Below are positions 1 through 52,517 of a stretch of 64,000 bases of DNA, in pieces. Position 1 is the first letter of the stretch; every line of letters begins with the position of its first letter. This DNA is from Naegleria gruberi (taxonomy: Eukaryota). Below the pieces are notes generated by a model. The model saw only the letters and a list, made by a program, of their open reading frames with translations, was not told the DNA's origin and searched no databases. The stretch lies in the NCBI GenBank assembly GCA_000004985.1, contig GG738864.1, one strand, 5' to 3'. The position numbers were made by a program, and so were the translations under genes.

Positions 1-1109
1 GTAATCAATGGGGAAGTATCTTAATTCCAAAATTAAATTTAACCATCATAGCATAATCATTGAACAATGAATTATTTATGCAACAATAATATATTCAATT
101 GTCATATTCATGTCAGTAATCAGTGAAGGTGACACTTCTTAACCCTTAGTATACACATCTCAATATGTAGACAGTCAATTCCACTGAAACTTGAAATATT
201 ACCTATCTAGATGATATAATGATGATTCTCCATAGTAACATGCATGTGTAATTGAATGTTGACACTTTTCATCTTGTTATATTTATAGAGATGGTATCCA
301 ACAGAGTCAGTTCACAATATTAAATATTGAAACTCATTCTATATGACATGTTTGATGTATGGTACGGGTTTTTATTGATTGTAATCAGTTTGAAATAATT
401 TGATGAAATTGACACTGTCTAGTCTCCATTACATGACAAATAGACCATAGTTTACATTCCATCTCAGTCATTTCAACGAGTTATTGATTAATTCCACCAC
501 CATTATGTTTCTCATACATTGTAGTACAGTTTATATTTCAAGAGTGATTTCTGTGTAGATTATTATAATCGTAATATCATCCAATACCAATAAAACTCAA
601 TAGAAGAGTTAATTCATCTCATTTTCAAATAGATTATTCAATATAGAACACATCTAGATAGTTTCCAGATCACAAAAGTCAAGATACTATATATGGTCTT
701 TGATTAAATTTAAAAATAGACTGCCGTTAATTACTGGAATATTAATTCAAAGCTTGTTGATCAAGCTATTGATTGAAATCAAACCGATTATTGAATATTG
801 ATCATTGAATTGGTGAATAATCACTCTCTTGATAATGTTACTTATTCATATTGCATGCAAATCAACCTGATTCAATCTACAAAGGTTGGTAGTTGCACCA
901 CTTCGTGGCGAAACTACCCATCCACGATGAATCAACATGTGATTCACTTCCATTCAACTCAATTTGACCGTTATAATCAATAAATCAATGAAATGTTTCT
1001 TTATTAGCAATACCTGTTCAATCCAATGAGTAGATTCACGTCCCAAACATTTGACTTCTAAAAGTCCATAATTCAAAAGTTAGTACTGACCTGACCTTTA
1101 AATATCTGT

Positions 1110-40466: not shown

Positions 40467-40549
40467 GTATGTTATTTGTTTTATATTTGATTTTTTAACA
40501 CAATCATTTCCGATTTCATTATCTTCTATTGGATAATTAATAATTACAG

Positions 40550-42223: not shown

Positions 42224-45200
42224 TTAATGGAAGTTAGATTGAGGAGTTTCACCATTTTCCAATGTATGATGGTAGTTTTTGGTATTCTTTCGAATATGGT
42301 AAACGGTTCCAATCAGCGTTACTAACAATACACTGAATGAAATTAATGAGATTGAAACCAATGCCAGAATATATGAGTGCCCACTGCTTGCTTGAACTTG
42401 TGGAGAATAAACAGGAAGGGGGTTCACTATAGGAGTCAATACACAAGCTTGCATTGTATCAGAAACCTTATAATCACTGTTTGAGCAGTAAGGAGTCAAC
42501 ATTCTAATTCTATCACTCTCGTCGTCAGTAAAGTAAACAGATAGTCCATCACTTGAGAAGGAGAGGGAACGAGAAAAGGTTAATCTTGTTGGTTTGGCAT
42601 CACCATCCCCATTGTAACCAAAATCAAATCCTGCTATTCTTTCCACTATGGCATTCTCCTCTCTCCACAAAAGTTTGAATATTCCACTACTTGAGTGTTC
42701 CGTAAATAGAACATATTGGTCATTAGCTAGGATGCTAGCTGGGTATGACAATAAAGTGTCCTTTCCTTTTGAACCTTCTCTGATGAATGAGTGTTGATGA
42801 GGTTTTCCAATAACTGTTGAAATAATTCCTTTAGAAATCTTTCTAATAATGAAATTTCTCTGATCCACAAAGAATAAATCGCCATTCTTCGTAAGACTCA
42901 TATGAGTTGGGCTATTAAGCAAAGCTTTGGATGCATCTGTTTCATCGTTATAGCCATGAACCCCAGGAATTCCATAAAGTGTTGACATTATACCATTTTT
43001 TGAAACTTTTCTAATAACATGATGACCAGAGTCAGCAATTAAAATCTCATCCTCAGGAGTCACTATGAAAGAGCCAGGATCATATAATAGTGCCTGATTT
43101 GCTGGTAAGCCATCACCTATTCCACCGCCAATAGTTTTGACCAATCCATTCGATAGTTTTCTTATTAATCCCTTTTTAGGTTCAGTAAATAATATGTCTT
43201 GCTCTGTTTCTCCAAATGACAAGCCATTAAGGAATGTGAAATGAAACCTTGTTGGGTCACTCAAATCATTGGCAGAAACTGTAATATTTCCAACTAAAAG
43301 GGTCAATTTACCTTCTGAAAACTTGCTTAAAGAGCCAGGCAAATGTGTTACATAAATATCATCACTTTTGGAAAGAATCAAGTGTTGAGGTCCATAAACT
43401 TCAAATACTGTGGAGATATTTCCGTTTGGTGAAATCCTTTTCACTTTTCCGTCCAACATGTCTGTCATATAAATTTCTTCTTTTGAATTTACAGCAATAC
43501 TTGATGGTCTAATGAAATAGTCAGCTCCCTGTGTAACAATTTCAACCATGTCACCAACTACTTTCAAAATTCTATTATTGTTTGCATCTGCTACATAGAG
43601 TTTGTCATCTTCAGTAACATATAAACCTTCTGGGAAATCCAATTGAATATCAGTAGCTGTTCTATTTCTAATATCACTCACACCTGTAACACCACTTCCT
43701 AAAACAGTTTCCATTTTCTTTTCTTCAATATTCACTTTTTTAACTTCAGATCCTGTTGAAAAGTATATTAAACCATTTCTTTCAAAGATCGCCAGTGGTT
43801 CTTCAATGAACGTATTGATAATTGCAGAGCTATCCATTCCAACAAGAGTTGAAATAATGCCCTTCTTATTGATTGCTCTGATTCTTTGATTTTTGGTATC
43901 AGCAATTAATACCATTTCTAATTGATTGGAATAAAAGACTGATAATGGATGATAGAGGAGAGCACTTGTAGCTAATGAGCCATCTCCATAATAGTGATGT
44001 CTGGTTCCAGCAACTCGAATAACCTTCCCAGTGGCTGATGAGAATTTATAAATAGTGTCATCCTGTGTGAAATAAACATCATTGCCAACTCTTTGAGCCA
44101 TAATATTAGGGTGATTCTCCAATTTAACCTTATTTAAAGGCAAATCATCTAGGTATTTGTGAGTGGAGATGGCTGATTTTACTCCCAATGTATGAGTAAT
44201 GATTGAATTTGCAATGGTACGAATTTTAGGATATTCCAAGTGGTCGACTAGGGTAACAATATCCCTTCCATTCTTTGACGTTACATGAATGTGATGAGGA
44301 GTTGATTGGGATTGAATGGCAGGTTTACCATTACCAAAGTAGAACTTTTCACCATTACCAAAAGAATTTGTGACTTGCCCATTTCCATCAATCTTAAAGA
44401 TGATATTGCTTTGAACACTGGCTACATAAATATCAGCACTATTTTCGAATTGAATCAATGAGTAAGGAAGAGTGATTTTAGAACTTGGAATGGAGAAAAT
44501 CTTTCCTTCAGATGTTATTTTCCTAACACCATCAAAACTCAATTCTGTGAATAGGATTTCATTATTGTGGTTGACAAAGATCTTGTGAGGTACAATACTG
44601 ACATTCGTGGCGATGTAACCATCAATAACAGGAAGATCTACTCCCTTACCAGCAATGATTGTAACAATACCATTCTCAACCTTTCTAATATTATAGGTAT
44701 CAGTAATGTAAACTATTGTCTTTCCACTCTTTGAATCATACTTTACAAAAACAGAACTAGGATTAGTCAAGAGATCATTTGATTCCACAACAGAATCATC
44801 AGCATCTCCACTCTTTCCACATTTTCCAGCAACTATTGTAATGTTACCACTCGATAATTCAATCTTCCTTATCCAATGATTGTGTGTTTCAACAACGTAC
44901 AAATATTCCTCACTTCCTTCACTGGAATGAAAAAGATCTTGAATTTGTAAAAAACCAGGATTTTCTACAGTTGTTTCTGAATCAACTTGACACCTCTCAT
45001 TATTTCTACTATTAGAAGCCACTAGAACAATCCTTCCACTTGAATCAATCTTTTTAATTTCATTTCCAAAAGTTTCCACAAAGTAAACTTGCCCACTCTT
45101 CTTGGAAACAGTCAAGGCATGAGGAGAGATTTTCTGTTGTGTGGCCATCTGTGATTCAAACCATCCAACAAAACCAGAAACTCCAGCAATAACCTCAACA

Positions 45201-45532
45201 ACCTTAGAAGGCTCACCCTCAATAAGAGATAACCTCTTTATCAGACCACTCATTCCATCTACAACAAATAGATAATTTTGATAGTAATCCATTGATAGAG
45301 GTCTTCCGATTGGCAATTCATCAGGTGATAATAATGTTTCTCCACCAGCAATGGTTGAAATATTGTACTGGAGAGGAGCATACCTTTGACCAGCTTGTTC
45401 ATTCTTCCTTAATTGCTGACTTGAAACCAGCCTCGTCATTATGATCATCACAATAACACTCATCATTGGCATTATTCTTCTAAGAGTTGTTATTACTTTC
45501 ATTGTTGATGAGGAAGGAACGGAGGAGGACAT
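42224..45532 (-). CDS. NHL-repeat type I transmembrane protein (1102 aa) with a multi-blade beta-propeller ectodomain, a single C-terminal TM and a short tail
   Basis: A real ATG and a signal-like segment MPMMSVIVMIIMTRLVSS are present. NHL-type repeats are IYVTDTYNIRKV, VLIADTKNQRIRAI, LYVADANNNRILKV and ILIADSGHHVIRKV. The TM is ILALVSISLISFSVLLVTLIGTVY. Confidence 0.75.
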   Translation of the reverse strand: MSSSVPSSSTMKVITTLRRIMPMMSVIVMIIMTRLVSSQQLRKNEQAGQRYAPLQYNISTIAGGETLLSPDELPIGRPLSMDYYQNYLFVVDGMSGLIKRLSLIEGEPSKVVEVIAGVSGFVGWFESQMATQQKISPHALTVSKKSGQVYFVETFGNEIKKIDSSGRIVLVASNSRNNERCQVDSETTVENPGFLQIQDLFHSSEGSEEYLYVVETHNHWIRKIELSSGNITIVAGKCGKSGDADDSVVESNDLLTNPSSVFVKYDSKSGKTIVYITDTYNIRKVENGIVTIIAGKGVDLPVIDGYIATNVSIVPHKIFVNHNNEILFTELSFDGVRKITSEGKIFSIPSSKITLPYSLIQFENSADIYVASVQSNIIFKIDGNGQVTNSFGNGEKFYFGNGKPAIQSQSTPHHIHVTSKNGRDIVTLVDHLEYPKIRTIANSIITHTLGVKSAISTHKYLDDLPLNKVKLENHPNIMAQRVGNDVYFTQDDTIYKFSSATGKVIRVAGTRHHYYGDGSLATSALLYHPLSVFYSNQLEMVLIADTKNQRIRAINKKGIISTLVGMDSSAIINTFIEEPLAIFERNGLIYFSTGSEVKKVNIEEKKMETVLGSGVTGVSDIRNRTATDIQLDFPEGLYVTEDDKLYVADANNNRILKVVGDMVEIVTQGADYFIRPSSIAVNSKEEIYMTDMLDGKVKRISPNGNISTVFEVYGPQHLILSKSDDIYVTHLPGSLSKFSEGKLTLLVGNITVSANDLSDPTRFHFTFLNGLSFGETEQDILFTEPKKGLIRKLSNGLVKTIGGGIGDGLPANQALLYDPGSFIVTPEDEILIADSGHHVIRKVSKNGIMSTLYGIPGVHGYNDETDASKALLNSPTHMSLTKNGDLFFVDQRNFIIRKISKGIISTVIGKPHQHSFIREGSKGKDTLLSYPASILANDQYVLFTEHSSSGIFKLLWREENAIVERIAGFDFGYNGDGDAKPTRLTFSRSLSFSSDGLSVYFTDDESDRIRMLTPYCSNSDYKVSDTMQACVLTPIVNPLPVYSPQVQASSGHSYILALVSISLISFSVLLVTLIGTVYHIRKNTKNYHHTLENGETPQSNFH

Positions 45533-45787
45533 TTTTTAATAGATGTGATGAAAATTATACGGTACTACTGTAGTAGTAGGTACATTATGGATTCTACTTT
45601 TGATTATTTCACCATACGATAAATTGTTGTTGTGTTTGATGAAAATAGTGTCGAGCATGAGGTCATGATGATAGTTTTTTTAAATTTTAAACGGCTAGAC
45701 AAATGAAATGTTGATCTTCCTCTTGTTGATGAGCATGTTGCTCTGATTTCTCTTGCCTGTGAGGAAGAATTCTTTTTCATGTGGTAG

Positions 45788-47236
45788 CTAGAATGAGATT
45801 CTGAAACCTTCAGGACAAAATGGAACTGCCTTCATTATGAACCTTTCTGTTTGATCCACAAAGTAGAAGGACAAAGCATTTTCATCTCCAAGTTTCAAGC
45901 GATACACTCTTCCAATTGATGAGAAGAAGATATATTGACCATTAGGAGAGATTGAATACGAAACAGGTTGCATCAAATAGGTTTCATTTCCTCTCCTCCC
46001 TTCAAGTGGAACGACCAAGCTCTTTACCTTCGAGCCAACAATTGTCGTGATAATTCCTTTTGAGATTCTTCTAATGAGGTTATTTTTCGAATCAAATACA
46101 TACAAGTCACCATCATTGGTGTAGTGAATATCTTTAGGTTGATTGAAGAGTGTTTTTGAAGCGTCACTTTCTGTATTGTATCCAGACACTCCAGGAATAC
46201 CATAGAGAGTAGAAATGATGCCCTCCTTTGAAACTTTTCTAATAACATGATCTTGTGTATCTGCAATAACCATTTCGCCTTCAACACTGACAAAGAAGGA
46301 GGAAACTTCTTGAATTTTGGCCTCTGTTGCTGGAAGTCCATCACCCAAGCCACCTGCAACCTTGGTAAGAGTATTTCCTTTTACTTTCCATACGAAACGA
46401 GTTGGTTCGGTAAAGTAAATTTCATCTTCTGTTTCACCAAAACAGAGAGAATCAATTGAAACGAATCGAGTTTCCAAAGGGTTGGAATAAGAAGTAGTTG
46501 TAGCATCAGAACCAACAATTCTCACCAATTTACCATCCACAACCTTACTCACAAACATTTCATGGGCAACATGTATTTCATCCTTACTGTTAATCAAAAC
46601 AGATGATGGCATTTTCACATCGATAAACCTTTCCCAAGTTCCATCTGTTTTAAGCTTGAAAAGGAATGATCCAAATTTTAAGGCAATAATGAAATCACCA
46701 TTTGAAAGTACATCAAAGGATGAAATAGAGGAGGTTTTATCTTGACGAACTAGTTCCGTTTGACTAGTTACGGCTTTGACAATAGTCAAAGAATCTAGAA
46801 GGCATAGATAAATATCACCATTATCCATTATTTTCATTTTACCTGGCAAAACTATTCTAGATAGATGCTCATATTTGGAATTTACCTTAAGGGTTTCCAA
46901 ATTCAAAATTTTTAAACTATTGCCCTCAATAAAGAAAATCTGACAATCCTTTTCAGTTAAAGAATAAATTTCACACTACAATATTTTTCTGGCCAATTTC
47001 TTATTAAACGACTTGAGGGGAGCTGTGCTTAATTTCCAGCCAAAATTTTTGTAATGATGAGCCGTCTTGTTGTTGTCGTTTAGTGGGATGAAATATTGTG
47101 GTGCTCTTTCCTTCATCCATACTGGTTCTCCAATCACCGAATTTGTACCTTCTTCATTATCGGGAGAGATTGTTCCTCCAGCAATTCTCATGGTCCTCCA
47201 TCTTAATGGAATTTTGATTAGATGTATACAGCACAT
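45788..47236 (-). pseudogene. Truncated tandem paralog of the NHL-repeat gene. It is one continuous frame interrupted by an in-frame TAG at 46976..46978, and it has no signal peptide and no TM.
   Basis: ORFs 46976..47236 and 45788..46906 share a frame and are separated only by TAG. The N-terminal piece MRIAGGTISPDNEEG... matches the ISTIAGGETLLSPDELPIGRP region of gene 42224..45532. The C-terminal ~250 aa align with that gene's last NHL blades (MVIADTQDHVIRKVSKEGIISTLYGIPGVSGYN matches ILIADSGHHVIRKVSKNGIMSTLYGIPGVHGYN). No splice removes the stop. Confidence 0.55.
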
Positions 47237-47304
47237 CTAATTTTTAACTCTAAGGCAACGCTGTTTTTGTCTGTATATGAAGAATTTATTTTTATGAATG
47301 TGAA

Positions 47305-47375
47305 GCGTCGATGGTTTAGTGGTAGAATACGGCGTTGCCATCGCCGTGACCCGGGTTCAATTCCCGGTCGACGCA
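47305..47375 (+). tRNA. tRNA-Gly (anticodon GCC)
   Basis: The 71-nt sequence is GCGTCGATGGTTTAGTGGTAGAATACGGCGTTGCCATCGCCGTGACCCGGGTTCAATTCCCGGTCGACGCA. It has a 7-bp acceptor stem GCGTCGA/TCGACGC, a D-arm, the anticodon loop TTGCCAT and a T-arm GGGTTCAATTCCC. A T-run (TTTTT) lies about 15 nt downstream. Confidence 0.88.
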
Positions 47376-47993
47376 TGAATTATCTTTTTATTCATTCTTT
47401 TTTGAAGTAATTTGAATTATTTTTCTACCACTCATAGAAGACATGTATTTGTACAATAATCTGTATTTTCTCTCAATTTAGAACAGTAATCATCGAGATA
47501 TTCACCTCCTTCCAAATAGCATTTTTTAACCTAAAAAATATGCTAAAAAAAGATGCCTACTAACTTTTTAACAACAACAATACAGATTCAATCTATTGAA
47601 AATCTCCTTGAAAACATGCCGTCAACATGAATTCTAATCACCAATGGATTTTAACGATTCCCAATGAGGATATTCTTTACCAACCTGGTCATTGTGAAAT
47701 GAAAATCGCCAAAAACAATATAGAGATAATGGCTAATTCTCATCTTGTCTTCAATTTTTAACAATGATTGGTTAAGGGTTTGAGATACCAAAAATCTTCA
47801 CTCCTTCAGCGAAAAATTGCCCGAAGCGGCATTGCACACAAATAAGAAACCTTAGAAAATACACATTTAAGAACATCTCTTTGAGAGTTGAAATTGCCCG
47901 AGTCTTTTAATATTTACTAAGGACCAAAAAAACAACACAACAAGTACTGAGCAAATTCCATCTTCTGAACACCAACAAACCTTAATCAACAAC

Positions 47994-48725
47994 ATGGGAA
48001 GTTTTACAAGTGCTATCATTAAACACTTTGAAGAGGAATACAGATTTGAGGAACATTATAGAAATAGACCTCCTATTAAACCACTTGAATCACTTTCACA
48101 TCACCAACAAGTGAAAATGAATTTTCATCAACCTCAACAGCAACCACTTCACAACACGACTTGCTACTCTCGAAAGAATAGCCTTGGAATTGTCAGCACT
48201 AGTATAAGCAGCTCGAATACAAGCTCCACCAGTAGCACAAGCACGAGCAGTATTAGCAACAGTACATTAAGACATGCCTCCTCCCGAATGTCAAAATATT
48301 TCATATCAAGTGATGATTCAAACAATCAAAATATATCACCAGGACCTGGTGGTTCAGGAACAATCATGAGAAAATCCTCAAAACCTGATCTATATAAGAA
48401 AATCCTCTCACCTGTACCAATAGATATTCCAGAATATCCAATAGAAGATTCTACATCAGATAACTCCTCACATTCCCTCCTGAAACAAAACTCACTTCCC
48501 TGTTTAAAACCAAATGGATGTGATAGATTGAAAGAAAAGACACTTACCAAGAGTAGGTCAATGCGAGAAAAGGGCTTGAAACAAATTAGATTTGCAGATG
48601 AGCCAGAAATTATTATGGAGAGAGTTGGCTCTGCTGATTCGCGTGCAGAGATGATGTTTAGCAAAAAGATGGTGCAACAACACGATGCTTCTTCTTCTGC
48701 ATCGACTGCTTCTAGAAAACAGTAG
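47994..48725 (+). CDS. Hypothetical Ser-rich protein (243 aa) with an MGSFTS N-myristoylation-type start and a KQIRFADE (RVxF-like) motif
   Basis: A real ATG is present. A long Ser/Thr tract is followed by the KQIRFADEPEI motif. Confidence 0.4.
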   Translation: MGSFTSAIIKHFEEEYRFEEHYRNRPPIKPLESLSHHQQVKMNFHQPQQQPLHNTTCYSRKNSLGIVSTSISSSNTSSTSSTSTSSISNSTLRHASSRMSKYFISSDDSNNQNISPGPGGSGTIMRKSSKPDLYKKILSPVPIDIPEYPIEDSTSDNSSHSLLKQNSLPCLKPNGCDRLKEKTLTKSRSMREKGLKQIRFADEPEIIMERVGSADSRAEMMFSKKMVQQHDASSSASTASRKQ

Positions 48726-48911
48726 CTGGGAAAAGGCTCACCCACCAAACTCACACATTGTTTAATGTTATCACTCTCAAACACAACCCCACAAACCTCC
48801 ATAACCACTACCTTAATCTGTACATAAATCTTAATTTATTTCTCAATGCACAGAAAAGTCCATTTGACACCGAAATCAAAGGCGCTTAATCGGAAGATCG
48901 TATGTCCATCT

Positions 48912-50180
48912 TTAGAGCTGAGCGAAAAAGTCCCTTGTTTGTTCGTCACTTGTGGACATATCGAGAGGTGGGCTATCTTCATCCATTAGATTGATTGAAT
49001 GTGGAGAGTCTGGTGATGTAGGCGAAATGCTGAATGTTGGTTGTGTTGGTTGAGAAAAACATGGGTTGGTAAATCTTCCCATTCCTGGATAATTTTCCAT
49101 GACTTCCATTCTCCTTACCATTTCTTCTTCTTCCATTTTCATAACATATCTACTATATTCTTCTTCTTCTTCCAGTCTTCTCATATTTATCATTCTTCTC
49201 CTTCCAAAACCTCCACCACCTCTAAAACGACGACCTACAGGATTATAGTCTCTTTCCATCATTCTCAAAGATTGGAAATCAGGATGGTCATCCATTGCAT
49301 CATATTGCTGATCAGATTGATTCATTGTTTTGAATGAATTGGTAGCATTGGAAAACTTGCCAATAAATCCCTTTTCTTCATTTTCCTTCAGGTAGACATG
49401 CAAAGGTTGTTTGAGATTTGACTCTATTCTCTTCACATTGTTATAAAAAGCCTTGAGAGCATTTCTCTTGGATTCGTCAAGCCTCTTTGTCTGAAAGTTA
49501 AAGTTGAAATTCAAAGCCTTCTCCTCTCCTTTATCGTCACAATGATTCTTCTTTTTGATAGTTCTTCTGACAAAGTGACCCTTTGGTGGTGCAACATTTC
49601 TTTCAATCTTACGAGGTGAAATATGATATGGATCAGTTGATGATGATGATGACTCCTTTCCAAACTCTATGAATGCAAATGAATCATCTTGTTCTTCTCT
49701 AGCTAATGATAATGCTGATTCGAATGATTGTCCCATAGAGAAGAATGGAGATTCATGCGATGAGGCTGTTTGCTGCTGCTCCTCCAACTCCTCTTTAGTG
49801 TAGAGTTTCGTATCAACTTTGAATAGGCTCTCATCTTCACAATAGAGAGAAGAATAAGGCTTGTTCGATTGTTCTGCAGAAGGACCTCCACCACCACCAT
49901 ACGAACGAATCATCGAGTTGTTGTTATATCTTAGAGGTTTTACCATAGTAGTATACAGAGAGAAAGGTGTGTTTGTTGTTGAGGTGTTTTTTTCGAGTTG
50001 GAGTTCTTGGCTTTTCTGTGTTTGAGGCTGTTTTTCAATGTAGTGAATCAAGGCTGACTCGCTAAGAGTATTGTTATCGGAGGAAGAAACAAGCCTAATT
50101 TTCAATTCTCTCTCTTTAATGAGAGGCAATTTCAATTTGAAAAGGTGTAGTGACAATTTGTGGAACACTGAGAATATCAC
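48912..50180 (-). CDS. Hypothetical protein, terminal exon (422 codons); the 5' exon was not found
   Basis: The tool's start is GTG. No ATG lies between the upstream in-frame TGA and the GTG, and there is an acceptor-like ...cacacag|ATC site at about 50195. The product is Gly-rich and acidic with no recognisable domain. Confidence 0.35.
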   Translation of the reverse strand: MIFSVFHKLSLHLFKLKLPLIKERELKIRLVSSSDNNTLSESALIHYIEKQPQTQKSQELQLEKNTSTTNTPFSLYTTMVKPLRYNNNSMIRSYGGGGGPSAEQSNKPYSSLYCEDESLFKVDTKLYTKEELEEQQQTASSHESPFFSMGQSFESALSLAREEQDDSFAFIEFGKESSSSSTDPYHISPRKIERNVAPPKGHFVRRTIKKKNHCDDKGEEKALNFNFNFQTKRLDESKRNALKAFYNNVKRIESNLKQPLHVYLKENEEKGFIGKFSNATNSFKTMNQSDQQYDAMDDHPDFQSLRMMERDYNPVGRRFRGGGGFGRRRMINMRRLEEEEEYSRYVMKMEEEEMVRRMEVMENYPGMGRFTNPCFSQPTQPTFSISPTSPDSPHSINLMDEDSPPLDMSTSDEQTRDFFAQL

Positions 50181-50451
50181 ATGGTCATAGATCTGTGTGA
50201 TTTCGAATAATATTAATCATCAAATAATTACTAAATTTTCACAAAGCCACCAACAATAATTCCAAATAATATAGTCAACATCAAAACCTAATAATCCACA
50301 TGTGATCTTCCTCTCTGCCCTTTTCATAGGATTCCAACATGTTCATCCCAAAATTCCCTTCACCCCAGCTTCACCATCATGAGATGACGCTCATAAACTT
50401 TCAAGTACTCGTCATGATCCAGAAAGTTATTTTTTTATAAAATTTAAAAAA

Positions 50452-50551
50452 ATGATCTTTTCCACAGCTGTTTCCATGACTGCTCACAAGAGCAATAAGA
50501 TTCTCTCTGGTAGACCAGCAGCATTGAAGATGATGATCCAAGGTTCTTCAG
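50452..50551 (+). CDS. mcu: Mitochondrial calcium uniporter (MCU) homolog, exon 1, with a presequence-like N-terminus
   Basis: ATG 50452 gives MIFSTAVSMTAHKSNKILSGRPAALKMMIQGSS. The donor is TCA G|gtaggt. Confidence 0.6.
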
Positions 50552-50829
50552 GTAGGTTTTGATCATGTTTTATATTGTTTGTTTAAATATATTGATGAAC
50601 ATTTTTTACCAATCATGATGGAATTTTTTGTATTCCTCCATTTGCTCTCTTCTTTGATCATTGTCATCATTTGATGATAATATATTTACACTGCTATAAT
50701 AATAATGGATCTTTATGATGATTAATTTCACTATGATCTTCATGTTAAAACAATATCTCTCATCAAATAATAATAATATTTCTTGATCATCGACCAAAAT
50801 ATTTACTCTACAAACAACAATAATAACAG

Positions 50830-51689
50830 CAAGAAACTTCTCAACATCCATGAATGCTCTCAACTTCTCGGATAATAGTGATATCAGAGCTATTGATAGA
50901 CATACTAGAATCCAAACTTTCAAGGACTTTTTAAACAAGGATAACAAAATTTCTATACCAAGAGAAGAATTCTACAAACTTGCTCAAGAAAAGGTCAAGG
51001 TCACTAGGGAAGAAGCTGAAACATTGTTGGAACAATTCAACAACTCAGCTGATGTATTAATATTGCCAGATAATGAAGCTTTGAAGGAACTCGTTATCCT
51101 CAAGCCTCACCTCATCACTAATCGTCTCTTGCAACACTTGAATGTTGATGTTGTGGAACAAGAAATTGAAATGAGAAGAGATTCATTGTTACAATTGGAA
51201 AAGGATCTTATTCCACTCCGTCGTGTAAAGGAAGAATGTGACAGAAAGGCAGCCAAATCTGTCAATAGAATTTTGTGGGGAGGTTTGGGTTACTTGTGTA
51301 CTCAATCTTTCATTTTGGCTAAAATGACTTGGATTGATTATGGTTGGGACGTTGTCGAACCAATCACTTACTTTGTAACTTTTACTACAGCAATGGGTGG
51401 TTATATTTACTTTAGTTTACAAAAGCGTGATTATACCTATGAAAGTGCTACTGAAGTTATTTTACACAAGAGACGTTTGAAGTTCTACAAGCAAGCAAAC
51501 TTTGATTTTGAAAAGTATCAAGAATTGGCCAAACAATATAATTATACCGTTTCACAAATTGAAGCTAACATTAAGCTTGTACACGGAATGGTTCCACTCA
51601 AGTGTGAGGAATTATTGCACGATATTAAGGAACAAGCTTTGAAGGAATATCAAGAAAGAAAGGTTTCTCCATCATCTGTTCTCCACTAA
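50830..51689 (+). CDS. mcu: MCU homolog, exon 2 (coiled coil - TM1 - filter - TM2 - coiled coil)
   Basis: ILWGGLGYLCTQSFILAKMTWIDYGWDVVEPITYFVTFTTAMGGYIYF aligns to the MCU region [49 protein letters not shown]. The acceptor ...aataacag|CA follows a ~278-nt intron. Confidence 0.75.
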
Positions 51690-51708
51690 ATTGTACATCT
51701 AGAATCAT

Positions 51709-52517
51709 TTATTTAATAAATTTACTCGAATACCCTCCTGAGGAAATGGTAGAGTATTTGATCCATTTCACACAATTTGCTTGTTCAATGTCAAACGTTT
51801 TCAATTTGAGTTTAGTCATTCGTTTCTTTGGCACTTCAAATTTCACGAGATGGACAGATGAAACAAGCTTTTTGTAGTTCTCTGGATCGAGGGGTTTCTG
51901 CATGATAAGTTTTACAGTAAGGCACTGCTCTTGCTCACCTGGTATATTGTCCAACTTCCACAAGACGTATTTTTCCTTTTCCAAGTAAATTTGTTGACTT
52001 TCCACTTCCTCCTCTGCTAGATCTCTTACATCCCGAGAGAAGTTACAATTACAATTGATAATCTTTTCATTTCGAGGCAGTGGAACGAGAAGATGAACAT
52101 TCTTTGCCTTCATTGCCGCTTTGTAATCAGATTTGAGTCTCACCACAACCTCCATAACAAATTCATTTACCTTTCTAATGTCCCAATAGATTCTGAATGG
52201 TATTTTCATATTTTCATTATAAGCCACTCTATAGTTCGCCAATACGAATTGTCCTTCATGAGCTATAAATGAGAATTTTCCATCCTGAAATAGTGTTGAA
52301 TTGACTGCATTGGCATGTAAATTCATATAGGTCAAATTCTGATACTTCTTATTGAGTTCAACTTTTACAATTGGTTTTGTATCAATATATGACTTCACCT
52401 TGATATATCCCAACACTTCAATTTTAAACATTTCTCCATTATTTCCCATTTCACAAATTACCTTTTCAATGACATCAACAAATATTTCATTTGTTTTAAT
52501 TGTTACTGGTCTTTCAG
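51709..52517 (-). CDS. apm4: AP-4 complex mu subunit, exon 4 (mu-homology domain)
   Basis: The C-terminal mu-homology domain ends ...VKWIKYSTISSGGYSSKF, which matches the family's WVRYITQNGDYQLR end. Confidence 0.7.

What the first reader, a model, noticed from the sequence alone, without database searches (positions are those of the whole stretch)
42224..47375. Tandem NHL-repeat paralogs: an intact type I membrane protein, then a truncated copy with an in-frame stop, next to a tRNA-Gly
The second copy keeps about 50 aa of N-terminal region and the last ~250 aa of the ectodomain, with more than 60% identity in the final blades. It has lost the signal peptide, the central blades and the TM and tail. 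It also carries a TAG in an otherwise continuous 483-codon frame. This is either a decaying duplicate, or a novel secreted or cytosolic short isoform if the TAG is a sequencing error. The tRNA gene sits 70 nt upstream of its ATG. In dictyostelids, tRNA genes are preferred integration landmarks for TRE and DGLT-A retroelements. The duplication breakpoint therefore lies next to a recombination-prone landmark, although no retroelement remnant is visible here.
Basis: partly seen in the sequence, partly recalled or inferred. Interest (0 to 1): 0.6.

Follow-up and report, generated by a model that had tools for sequence, protein, structure and literature searches.

The report
Decayed tandem NHL-repeat gene copy
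In the amoeba Naegleria gruberi (not a slime mould), an intact gene for a cell-surface NHL-repeat protein sits next to the broken remnant of an old sister gene; this is an ordinary pseudogene, which the public annotation has wrongly fused to its neighbour.

Summary
An intact 1102-codon NHL-repeat ORF lies at 42224..45532 (-). Upstream at 45788..47236 (-) is a 483-codon frame with one TAG (46978..46976), against about 35 stops expected. A tRNA-Gly(GCC) lies 68 nt upstream on the other strand.

The organism is Naegleria gruberi NEG-M, so the dictyostelid TRE/DGLT-A idea does not apply.

The copies are old paralogs. Synonymous sites are saturated and dN/dS is 0.12-0.23 in the best-conserved blades.

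Two contigs (L002, L003) from a very close relative show the short copy was once a full type I membrane protein. They still carry four parts that NEG-M lacks:
- a signal-peptide-like block
- blade 1
- 22 codons of the last blade
- stalk, membrane helix and tail

The NEG-M terminal TAG is AAG in the relative. The relative's copy has three frameshifts of its own. Changes between the two versions look neutral (7 synonymous, 15 not).

Best reading (about 0.8): an unprocessed pseudogene decaying independently in close lineages. The public model XP_002677943.1 (1317 aa) fuses both copies through two implausible "introns".

Not excluded: a soluble one-propeller product, since AlphaFold2 still folds the ORF into a six-bladed propeller.

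Interest is low.

The parts
42224..45532 (-). Intact long NHL-repeat gene: 1102 codons plus stop, a type I membrane protein with about 18 NHL-type blades
   Evidence: Single ORF. Pfam TEN_NHL and NHL above cut-off. AlphaFold2 gives about 18 four-stranded blades, and Foldseek matches teneurin-like protein and LRP4/6 tandem propellers.
45419..45478 (-). Signal-peptide-like hydrophobic stretch of the long copy (residues 19-38)
   Evidence: Kyte-Doolittle scan. The JGI model skips this stretch.
42290..42382 (-). Transmembrane helix of the long copy (residues 1051-1081), followed by a tail of about 21 aa
   Evidence: Kyte-Doolittle scan, mean 2.61.
45788..47236 (-). Short copy: a 483-codon frame with one internal TAG. 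It is the remnant of a once full-length paralog.
   Evidence: No hydrophobic segment.
46976..46978 (-). Internal in-frame TAG (codon 87)
   Evidence: It lies in a 130-nt stretch absent from the relative's contig L003, so its polarity cannot be set.
47114..47215 (-). N-terminal 'island' (PLRWRTMRIAGGTISPDNEEGTNSVIGEPVWM), homologous to long-copy residues 52-81
   Evidence: 99% identical to L002 85..186. Aligns to the long copy; 0.8% of shuffles reach the score.
47216..47227 (-). Site of the lost signal-peptide block: 12 nt here against 307 nt in the relative
   Evidence: The L002 block encodes IWTSIVLYIIIALLLMTVVISS.
46975..47104 (-). 130-nt stretch between the island and blade 10, present in NEG-M only; possibly a worn blade-9 remnant
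   Evidence: Window-only gap. There is a weak collinear match, TAHHYKNFGWKLSTAPL to long 509-525, but it is not significant: 21% of shuffles reach the score.
45874..45875 (-). Junction of a 66-nt (22-codon) in-frame deletion in the last blade
   Evidence: L003 has 66 extra nt here, encoding ...IEFVFKSDSALLHSVRFATNG.... The long copy has 35 residues at this point.
45788..45790 (-). Terminal TAG of the short frame; the relative has AAG and reads on into stalk, membrane helix and tail
45604..45787 (-). Remnant of the short copy's juxtamembrane region and cytoplasmic tail (MKKNSSSQAREIR...), after deletions of 212, 62 and 6 nt
   Evidence: ORF 45604..45780. It aligns to L003 1460..1604, which lies downstream of the L003 membrane helix.
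47305..47375 (+). tRNA-Gly(GCC), divergent from the short copy
   Evidence: ARAGORN; Rfam RF00005 at 66.9 bits.
46795..47148 (-). 'Intron 1' of the public model XP_002677943.1: 354 nt, GTACAA...CTAG, placed over the TAG
   Evidence: Mapping of P0084. The frame is open apart from the TAG. Its 3' 181 nt have 0 stops in frame against 8 and 10 in the other frames, and are homologous to the long copy.
45368..46027 (-). 'Intron 2' of the public model: 660 nt. It skips the short copy's last 79 codons, the intergenic DNA, and the long copy's ATG and signal peptide.
   Evidence: A bona fide intron in this window is 83 nt, GC 0.20, GTATGT...TTACAG.

Best explanation
The region holds two tandem, same-strand genes of a Naegleria gruberi family of surface NHL-repeat proteins.

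The long gene. The downstream gene (42224..45532) is intact. It most likely makes a type I membrane protein: a signal peptide, then about 18 NHL blades folded into tandem beta-propellers on the cell surface, then one membrane helix and a short tail. That this ectodomain binds ligands is inferred, and the ligand is unknown.

The short gene. The upstream copy (45604..47236) is an unprocessed pseudogene. It is the remnant of an anciently diverged, once full-length paralog that stayed under purifying selection for most of its history and was inactivated recently.

Lesions on the assembled NEG-M haplotype:
- loss of about 285-295 nt encoding the signal-peptide-like segment
- loss of a large block, blades 1 to about 9
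- loss of 22 codons of the last blade
- loss of 212 nt encoding the stalk and membrane helix
- loss of 62 + 6 nt of the tail
- two nonsense codons

The version in a close relative carries a different set of frameshifts, so the locus is decaying independently in each lineage.

The tRNA-Gly is simply the upstream neighbour.

The public 1317-aa model is most likely an artefact of a gene predictor bridging the stop codons.

Shown: paralogy, lesions, polarity, neutral-like substitutions. Inferred: lack of function, and that the fused model is an artefact.
For: - Organism: exact protein matches to N. gruberi NEG-M.
- Paralogy: E = 1e-60.
- Old duplication under constraint: pS is 0.70-0.74 (saturated) and dN/dS is 0.12-0.23 over long residues 760-962. 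Only about half of identical residues share a codon, so there has been no recent gene conversion.
- L002 matches window 47228..51953 with 33 mismatches in 4788 aligned columns. At the gene's 5' end it has a 307-nt block encoding IWTSIVLYIIIALLLMTVVISS and a proper blade 1 (IFVIDHASGIV). Both are absent from the whole window.
- The L002 N-terminus aligns to long residues 25-98 better than any of 1000 shuffles.
- L003 is collinear with window 47132..45705. It holds 66 nt of blade 18, 212 nt of stalk plus membrane helix, and 68 nt of tail that the window lacks. It has AAG where the window has its terminal TAG.
- L003 itself lacks 130, 2, 31 and 5 nt, and its coding path changes frame three times.
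- Window against L003: 22 substitutions in the frame, 7 synonymous and 15 not, spread 6/8/8 over codon positions. Unselected mutation would give a synonymous fraction of 0.22.
- Divergence is 2.07% here against about 0.8% in flanking intergenic DNA.
- The short copy has no hydrophobic segment.
- Both 'introns' of the fused model are made of ORF-like, paralog-homologous sequence and are 4-8 times longer than the one verified intron in the window.
Against: - No read or expression data could be examined.
- All three NEG-M deletions upstream of the terminal stop keep the frame. That is about 1 chance in 9 to 27 if deletions were random.
- The 395-codon ORF after the TAG has an ATG at codon 133.
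- AlphaFold2 folds this ORF into a near-complete six-bladed NHL propeller: pTM 0.65, target-normalised TM-score (TMt) 0.74-0.78 to Pizza6, 0.66-0.69 to the TRIM2 and TRIM71 NHL domains. A soluble product is therefore structurally conceivable.
- With only 22 substitutions, moderate constraint on the NEG-M branch cannot be excluded.
- L002 and L003 come from one metagenome sample and disagree on what follows the island. The history therefore involves two haplotypes, extra copies or a repeat, and is unresolved.
- L002's own copy may also be broken: a 10-nt indel puts the ATG out of frame.
Confidence: 0.8

Rival explanations
1. The short copy is a working gene for a soluble, cytosolic single-propeller NHL protein. 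It would be translated from an ATG downstream of the TAG (codon 133 or 136, about 349 aa). It would have been made by trimming away the signal peptide, the other propellers and the membrane anchor.
For: - The ORF is intact for 395 codons after the TAG.
- AlphaFold2 gives a confident six-bladed propeller for query residues about 80-320, and Foldseek gives a target-normalised TM-score (TMt) up to 0.78 to six-bladed NHL propellers.
- The 285-nt and 66-nt deletions and the island junction all keep the frame.
- The terminal TAG falls right after the propeller.
Against: - The relative's version has three frameshifts in this very ORF.
- Substitutions are neutral-like: 7 synonymous, 15 not, even across codon positions.
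- Divergence exceeds that of the intergenic flanks.
- An 86-codon upstream ORF precedes the putative start.
- Frame-shifted tail debris lies downstream.
- The first 80 and last 30 residues are poorly predicted.
- A recently dead gene would fold just as well in AlphaFold2.
Confidence: 0.09
2. The public model is right. There is one gene (NAEGRDRAFT_48564, XP_002677943.1, 1317 aa) whose exons come from both copies, with introns of 354 and 660 nt.
For: - The model exists in GenBank and UniProt.
- Both proposed introns have GT...AG ends, GTACAA..CTAG and GTAAAG..CCAG.
Against: - Both 'introns' are open or nearly open in the coding frame and homologous to the paralog.
- Intron 1 exists only to remove the TAG.
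- Intron 2 removes the long copy's own ATG and signal peptide, which are contiguous with the 1102-codon ORF. The product would be a membrane protein with no signal peptide.
- In the relative, the short copy has its own membrane helix and tail, so it was a separate gene.
- The one verified intron in the window is 83 nt, GC 0.20 and full of stops.
Confidence: 0.04
3. The truncation or the TAG is an assembly or sequencing artefact, or a minor haplotype, and NEG-M really carries an intact second gene.
For: - NHL blades are repetitive and could collapse in assembly.
- Naegleria genomes are polyploid and heterozygous, with loss-of-heterozygosity tracts (PMC9928731).
- L002 shows that a version with the signal-peptide block and blade 1 exists in a near-identical genome.
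- No reads could be checked.
Against: - L003, an independent Illumina metagenome contig, carries the same junction from island to AAGGAAAGAG, 29 nt at 100% identity. The truncated form therefore exists outside the NEG-M assembly.
- Blades within the gene are only 20-30% identical at the protein level, so they are too different to collapse.
- Five separate deletions and two stops are not one collapse.
Confidence: 0.07

Closest known systems
NHL-repeat beta-propeller proteins (Pfam NHL PF01436; TEN_NHL PF25021, the teneurin NHL domain), including bacterial multi-propeller NHL surface proteins
   Same: - Both copies score above the Pfam cut-offs.
- Blades carry the usual ...G.G..GDG..A....P..i..d..g.lyvaD..n..IRK... 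pattern.
- The models match teneurin-like protein 9ifo, TRIM2/TRIM71/NHLRC2 NHL domains and Pizza6.
- The nearest sequence relatives are metagenomic or bacterial NHL proteins at 23-45% identity.
   Different: - No teneurin YD shell, no TRIM RING or B-box and no thioredoxin domain is present.
- The layout here is signal peptide, about 18 blades, stalk, one membrane helix and a short tail.
- No orthologue from another eukaryote turned up. However, the word-indexed searches were lossy: they even missed the public fused model twice.
Other N. gruberi NHL surface proteins, for example EFC49696.1 / XP_002682440.1 (731 aa)
   Same: Same species. It has a signal peptide, tandem NHL blades, a Ser-rich stalk and a C-terminal hydrophobic anchor.
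   Different: It shares only 33% identity over 29% of the query, lies on another scaffold, and has far more regular blades.
Unprocessed (duplicated) pseudogenes next to their functional paralog
   Same: - The copy is in tandem, on the same strand, with flanking promoter-side DNA kept.
- It has nonsense codons and deletions.
- Recent substitutions are neutral-like.
- Lesions are independent in a sister lineage.
   Different: It is not a young duplicate that died at birth. Synonymous sites between the copies are saturated and dN/dS is low, so it was a working gene for a long time before a recent death.
   Same: A tRNA gene lies next to a rearranged gene.
   Different: - The organism is different: Naegleria, a heterolobosean.
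- The tRNA flanks hold no repeat, no reverse-transcriptase-like ORF and no remnant.
- The flanks are orthologous single-copy DNA in the relative.

Membership tests
NHL repeat / TEN_NHL beta-propeller family | Profile match above Pfam's curated gathering score | tested here: met
   Long copy: TEN_NHL 92.7 bits (cut-off 27.1), NHL 56.4 bits (cut-off 20). Short copy after the TAG: TEN_NHL 38.9 bits, NHL 24.3 bits.
NHL repeat / TEN_NHL beta-propeller family | Four-stranded blades forming a six-bladed propeller | tested here: met
   The AlphaFold2 model of the short ORF has pTM 0.65. Its target-normalised TM-score (TMt) is 0.74-0.78 to six-bladed Pizza6 and 0.66-0.69 to the TRIM2 and TRIM71 NHL domains. 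The long copy has about 18 four-stranded blades at mean pLDDT 65.6. How the blades divide into propellers was not resolved.
Type I membrane protein (long copy) | N-terminal signal peptide plus a single C-terminal membrane helix | tested here: met
   Hydrophobic stretches at residues 19-38 and 1051-1081 only. This is a hydropathy scan, not a dedicated signal-peptide predictor.
Pseudogene (short copy) | Disabling lesions relative to the ancestral coding sequence | tested here: met
   An internal TAG. Loss of the signal-peptide block, blade 1 onward, 22 codons of blade 18, the stalk and membrane helix, and part of the tail. A terminal TAG where the relative has AAG.
Pseudogene (short copy) | Relaxed selection (dN/dS near 1) since inactivation | tested here: inconclusive
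   7 synonymous and 15 non-synonymous changes, spread 6/8/8 over codon positions, against an expected neutral synonymous fraction of 0.22. This fits neutrality, but there are only 22 changes and they are not assigned to branches.
Pseudogene (short copy) | No functional transcript or protein | not testable with these tools
   No read, EST, RNA-seq or proteome data were reachable. The exact ORF products are absent from the protein collection.
Processed (retrotransposed) pseudogene | Poly(A) tract, target-site duplications and loss of the promoter context | tested here: not met
   The copy is in tandem, with its 5' intergenic DNA conserved in the relative. No poly(A) tract follows the remnant.
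tRNA-targeted retroelement insertion (TRE/DGLT-A type) | Retroelement sequence (RT/EN ORF, LTR or repeat) at a fixed distance from a tRNA gene, in a dictyostelid genome | tested here: not met
   The genome is N. gruberi. The stretch 47237..47993 has no repeat in the window and no ORF longer than about 60 codons.
tRNA gene | Cloverleaf covariance-model match with an anticodon | tested here: met
   ARAGORN finds Gly(GCC). Rfam RF00005 scores 66.9 bits against a gathering score of 29.

The most novel reading that the evidence does not exclude
The second NHL gene may be a presence/absence and structure polymorphism that still segregates in N. gruberi. Some haplotypes (L002-type) would keep a signal-peptide-bearing, possibly full-length receptor. 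Others (NEG-M, L003-type) would carry independently decaying or re-sculpted alleles. That would point to rapid birth-and-death or balancing selection on a surface recognition receptor, for prey, mates or self. On the NEG-M haplotype, it could alternatively mean conversion of a membrane receptor into a soluble one-propeller protein.
Probability: 0.1. Interest if true: 0.4.

Novelty: new member of a known kind. Interest (0 to 1): 0.15.

Why it matters
The main value is for curation. XP_002677943.1 / D2VDA4 (NAEGRDRAFT_48564) should be split into an intact 1102-aa type I NHL membrane protein and an adjacent pseudogene. The fused model lacks the real signal peptide and would mislead orthology, localisation and domain-count analyses of Naegleria surface proteins.

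The locus also shows fast structural turnover between N. gruberi genomes less than about 2% apart: at least 10 indel events in 1.5 kb, plus a half-deleted tRNA gene. This is a small data point on how surface-protein families turn over in a free-living amoeba.

It opens no long-standing question.

Tried and rejected
- Three word-indexed protein searches. They returned mostly bacterial or metagenomic NHL proteins. The two queries based on the short copy (the query also carried the L002 N-terminal segment) failed to return the public model, which contains 270+ identical residues. Absence of other eukaryotic orthologues in these lists is therefore not evidence of absence.
- Two scans of JGI metagenome contigs, one with each copy, found no relative.
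- Exact look-ups of every plausible NEG-M ORF product found nothing beyond the fused model. The look-ups covered the 372, 349, 346, 86, 71 and 58 aa products.
- Look-up of N. gruberi genomic context through the gene index failed, because the genome is not indexed.
- No paper mentions PRJEB11402 or NHL repeats in N. gruberi. The 2010 genome paper is not held.
- A small intron that removes the TAG was considered. The only GT..AG candidate, GTAGTG...TGTCAG, is 40 nt, shifts the frame and lies inside an ORF in L003. Rejected.
- Recent gene conversion as the cause of the 60-77% identical blades was considered. It is rejected because synonymous sites there are saturated.
- Defining propeller boundaries from a one-propeller homologue failed because the repeat register is ambiguous. 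The earlier idea that the remnant starts mid-propeller and cannot fold was dropped, because AlphaFold2 builds a closed six-bladed propeller from it.
- A 37-nt intron in L002 joining the ATG to the signal-peptide frame was considered, as was a 10-nt insertion causing a frameshift. This is left open.


Full report
**1. The observation**

The window has an uninterrupted 1102-codon ORF at 42224..45532 on the minus strand. Upstream on the same strand, the frame 47236..45788 runs for 483 codons with a single TAG at 46978..46976. The other two frames of that stretch have 29 and 44 stops. 2000 shuffles give a mean of 34.8 stops and never fewer than 18, so the open frame is far beyond chance.

Both products match Pfam TEN_NHL and NHL above the curated cut-offs.

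The tRNA-Gly(GCC) at 47305..47375 (+) is found by ARAGORN and by Rfam at 66.9 bits. It lies 68 nt from the ATG at 47236, on the opposite strand.

**2. The organism**

Four ORFs of the window are identical to Naegleria gruberi NEG-M proteins: EFC45108, EFC45191, EFC45192 and beta-tubulin EFC45110. All sit on one 441,990-bp scaffold. GC is about 35%.

This is not a dictyostelid, so the argument about TRE/DGLT-A retroelements targeting tRNA genes has no basis here. The stretch 47237..47993 has no repeat in the window and no sizeable ORF. It is about 99% identical to the orthologous DNA of a close relative.

**3. Paralogy and age of the duplication**

- Short residues 89-455 align collinearly to long residues 578-962, at 34% identity and E = 1e-60.
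- Short residues 9-41 align to long residues 52-81. 0.8% of shuffles reach that score.
- Identity peaks at 63-77% in 30-codon windows around short residues 313-360, roughly blades 14-16 of about 18.
- In that region only about half of identical residues use the same codon. pS is 0.70-0.74, which is saturated, and dN/dS is 0.12-0.23.

The duplication is therefore old, and there has been no recent gene conversion. The copy, or its full-length ancestor, was under purifying selection for most of its history.

**4. The public annotation**

The only N. gruberi protein covering the region is EFC45199.1 / XP_002677943.1 / NAEGRDRAFT_48564 / D2VDA4, 1317 aa. It fuses the two copies as follows:

| Piece | Coordinates | Content |
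|---|---|---|
| exon 1 | 47191..47149 | start of the short copy |
| 'intron 1' | 47148..46795 (354 nt) | covers the TAG |
| exon 2 | 46794..46028 | short-copy blades |
| 'intron 2' | 46027..45368 (660 nt) | short copy's last 79 codons, intergenic DNA, long copy's ATG and signal peptide |
| exon 3 | 45367 onward | long copy from residue 56 |

Reasons to doubt the model:
- Intron 1 is in frame and open apart from the TAG. Its 3' 181 nt have 0 stops in frame against 8 and 10 in the other frames, and they are homologous to the long copy.
- Intron 2 discards a signal-peptide-bearing start that is contiguous with the 1102-codon ORF.
- The one intron I could verify in the window, in the acyl-CoA oxidase gene at 40467..40549, is 83 nt, GC 0.20, GTATGT...TTACAG.

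I regard the fused model as a gene-prediction artefact. This is an inference, because no transcript data were available.

**5. Independent sequence from a close relative**

An ENA metagenome assembly (ERZ929261, run ERR1078381) contains Naegleria contigs nearly identical to the window.

*L002 (5211 bp).*
- It matches window 47228..51953 with 33 mismatches in 4788 aligned columns.
- At the 5' end of the short copy it has 307 nt where the window has 12 nt (47227..47216). This block encodes a strongly hydrophobic, signal-peptide-like stretch, IWTSIVLYIIIALLLMTVVISS, in frame with ...RIAGGTISPD....
- A shared 102-nt island follows, at 99% identity to window 47215..47114.
- L002 then continues into a proper first blade (SLRFAWNDTKVLIEEEEIFVIDHASGIV). 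That sequence is found nowhere in the 64-kb window.
- The L002 N-terminus aligns to long residues 25-98 better than any of 1000 shuffles.

*L003 (1604 bp).* I found it through the 171-aa, 95%-identical hit P0454. It is collinear with window 47132..45705.

| Relative to L003, the window lacks | Relative to the window, L003 lacks |
|---|---|
| 66 nt (22 codons) of the last blade | 130 nt (47104..46975, which include the TAG) |
| 212 nt encoding the stalk and a membrane helix (GILPLTGMIISSTTILVAVLFALWYHM) | 2 nt |
| 62 + 6 nt of the cytoplasmic tail | 3 nt |
| | 31 nt |
| | 5 nt |

The window also has TAG where L003 has AAG, at 45790..45788. The small window ORF 45604..45780 (MKKNSSSQAREIR...) is the leftover of the juxtamembrane region and tail. 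On the L003 side, the coding path changes frame three times and was called as three separate genes.

Polarity is set by homology to the long copy. The parts that the window lacks are ancestral coding sequence, and so are the parts that L003 lacks.

**6. Recent evolution**

- In the shared frame, window and L003 differ by 22 substitutions: 7 synonymous and 15 not, spread 6/8/8 over codon positions. Unselected mutation would give a synonymous fraction of 0.22.
- Divergence is 2.07% (26 of 1255) with 11 indel events.
- The intergenic flanks between L002 and the window differ by about 0.8%, and a conserved neighbouring gene by 0%.

This pattern fits relaxed constraint. The excess over the flanks also suggests that L003 and L002 have different coalescence depths.

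**7. Interpretation**

The upstream copy was once a complete type I NHL membrane protein. On the assembled NEG-M haplotype it is now a remnant with two nonsense codons and at least five deletions. It has no signal peptide and no membrane anchor. The relative's version is broken differently. The simplest reading is an unprocessed pseudogene decaying independently in close lineages, at confidence about 0.8.

The tRNA is just the upstream neighbour. In L002 the gene's signal-peptide-like segment lies at the same distance from the tRNA site, so there is no duplication breakpoint there.

**8. What remains open**

- L002 and L003 come from the same sample but disagree on what follows the island: blade 1 in one, the NEG-M-like AAGGAAAGAG in the other. 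Possible explanations are two haplotypes or strains, an extra tandem copy, or an internal repeat. Naegleria genomes are reported to be polyploid and heterozygous, with loss-of-heterozygosity tracts (PMC9928731).
- L002's copy may itself be disabled. A 10-nt indel puts the ATG out of frame with the signal-peptide ORF, unless a 37-nt intron is used.
- The TAG at 46976 cannot be checked, because L003 lacks that stretch.
- AlphaFold2 folds the 395-codon ORF after the TAG into a near-complete six-bladed NHL propeller: pTM 0.65, target-normalised TM-score (TMt) up to 0.78 to Pizza6 and 0.66-0.69 to the TRIM2 and TRIM71 NHL domains. All NEG-M deletions upstream of the terminal stop also keep the frame. 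A soluble one-propeller product is therefore structurally possible, at about 0.09. The frameshifts in the relative, the neutral-like substitutions and the 86-codon upstream ORF argue against it.

**9. The long copy**

The AlphaFold2 model has mean pLDDT 65.6, and is confident from about residue 480 to 1015. It shows about 18 four-stranded blades. Foldseek matches teneurin-like protein 9ifo and the tandem propellers of LRP4, LRP6 and LRP2.

N. gruberi has at least one other protein of the same layout (signal peptide, NHL blades, anchor), EFC49696.1. Its function as a surface ligand-binding receptor is inferred from this architecture only.

**10. Verdict**

The finding is an ordinary pseudogene plus an annotation error, with a minor note of fast structural turnover at this locus. 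Interest is 0.15.

Noticed in passing
window 47330..47373 (inside tRNA-Gly 47305..47375); L002 about 540..600: The relative's contig L002 lacks 44 nt of the tRNA-Gly gene, its 3' two-thirds, and ARAGORN finds no tRNA there. The tRNA is therefore intact in NEG-M and broken in the relative. Whether the deletion is real or an assembly effect at a multi-copy tRNA is unknown.
   Followed up: partly
window 45368..47191 plus 42224..45367: The public model XP_002677943.1 / EFC45199.1 / D2VDA4 (NAEGRDRAFT_48564, 1317 aa) is a chimera of the pseudogene and the intact gene. It omits the real start and signal peptide of the long gene.
   Followed up: yes
L002 1..186 versus L003 1..29: Two contigs from one metagenome sample share the end of the 102-nt island and then diverge. 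L002 goes into an intact blade 1. L003 goes into the NEG-M-like junction. This implies two haplotypes or strains, or an extra copy, in that sample. L003 is also 2.07% diverged from NEG-M, against about 0.8% for the L002 flanks.
   Followed up: partly
window 40467..40549 (+): A clear 83-nt spliceosomal intron (GTATGT...TTACAG, GC 0.20) splits the acyl-CoA oxidase gene between ...FAMTE and IEHGSNV.... It is useful as a local reference for real N. gruberi introns.
   Followed up: yes
window 48912..50180 (-) versus L002 2139..3167: This 422-codon ORF encodes a low-complexity protein. It differs from the relative by 15 substitutions and 5 indels, including single-nucleotide indels near its 5' end. 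The relative's gene call is only 342 aa. It may be fast-evolving, or mis-started in one of the two.
   Followed up: no
window 47994..48725 (+) versus L002 1222..1950: The neighbouring Ser/Thr-rich 'predicted protein' EFC45108 differs from the relative by several amino-acid changes and two in-frame indels, despite about 0.7% DNA divergence.
   Followed up: no
another scaffold of N. gruberi (P0206 = EFC49696.1): A second N. gruberi NHL surface protein of 731 aa has a signal peptide, very regular NHL blades, a Ser-rich stalk and a hydrophobic C-terminus. NHL-repeat surface proteins thus form a small family in this amoeba, and their nearest sequence relatives in the searches are bacterial or metagenomic.
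   Followed up: partly
tool behaviour: The word-indexed protein search did not return the public fused model for queries containing 270+ residues identical to it. The long-copy query returned it at once. Negative results from that tool for this repeat-rich family should not be trusted.
   Followed up: partly
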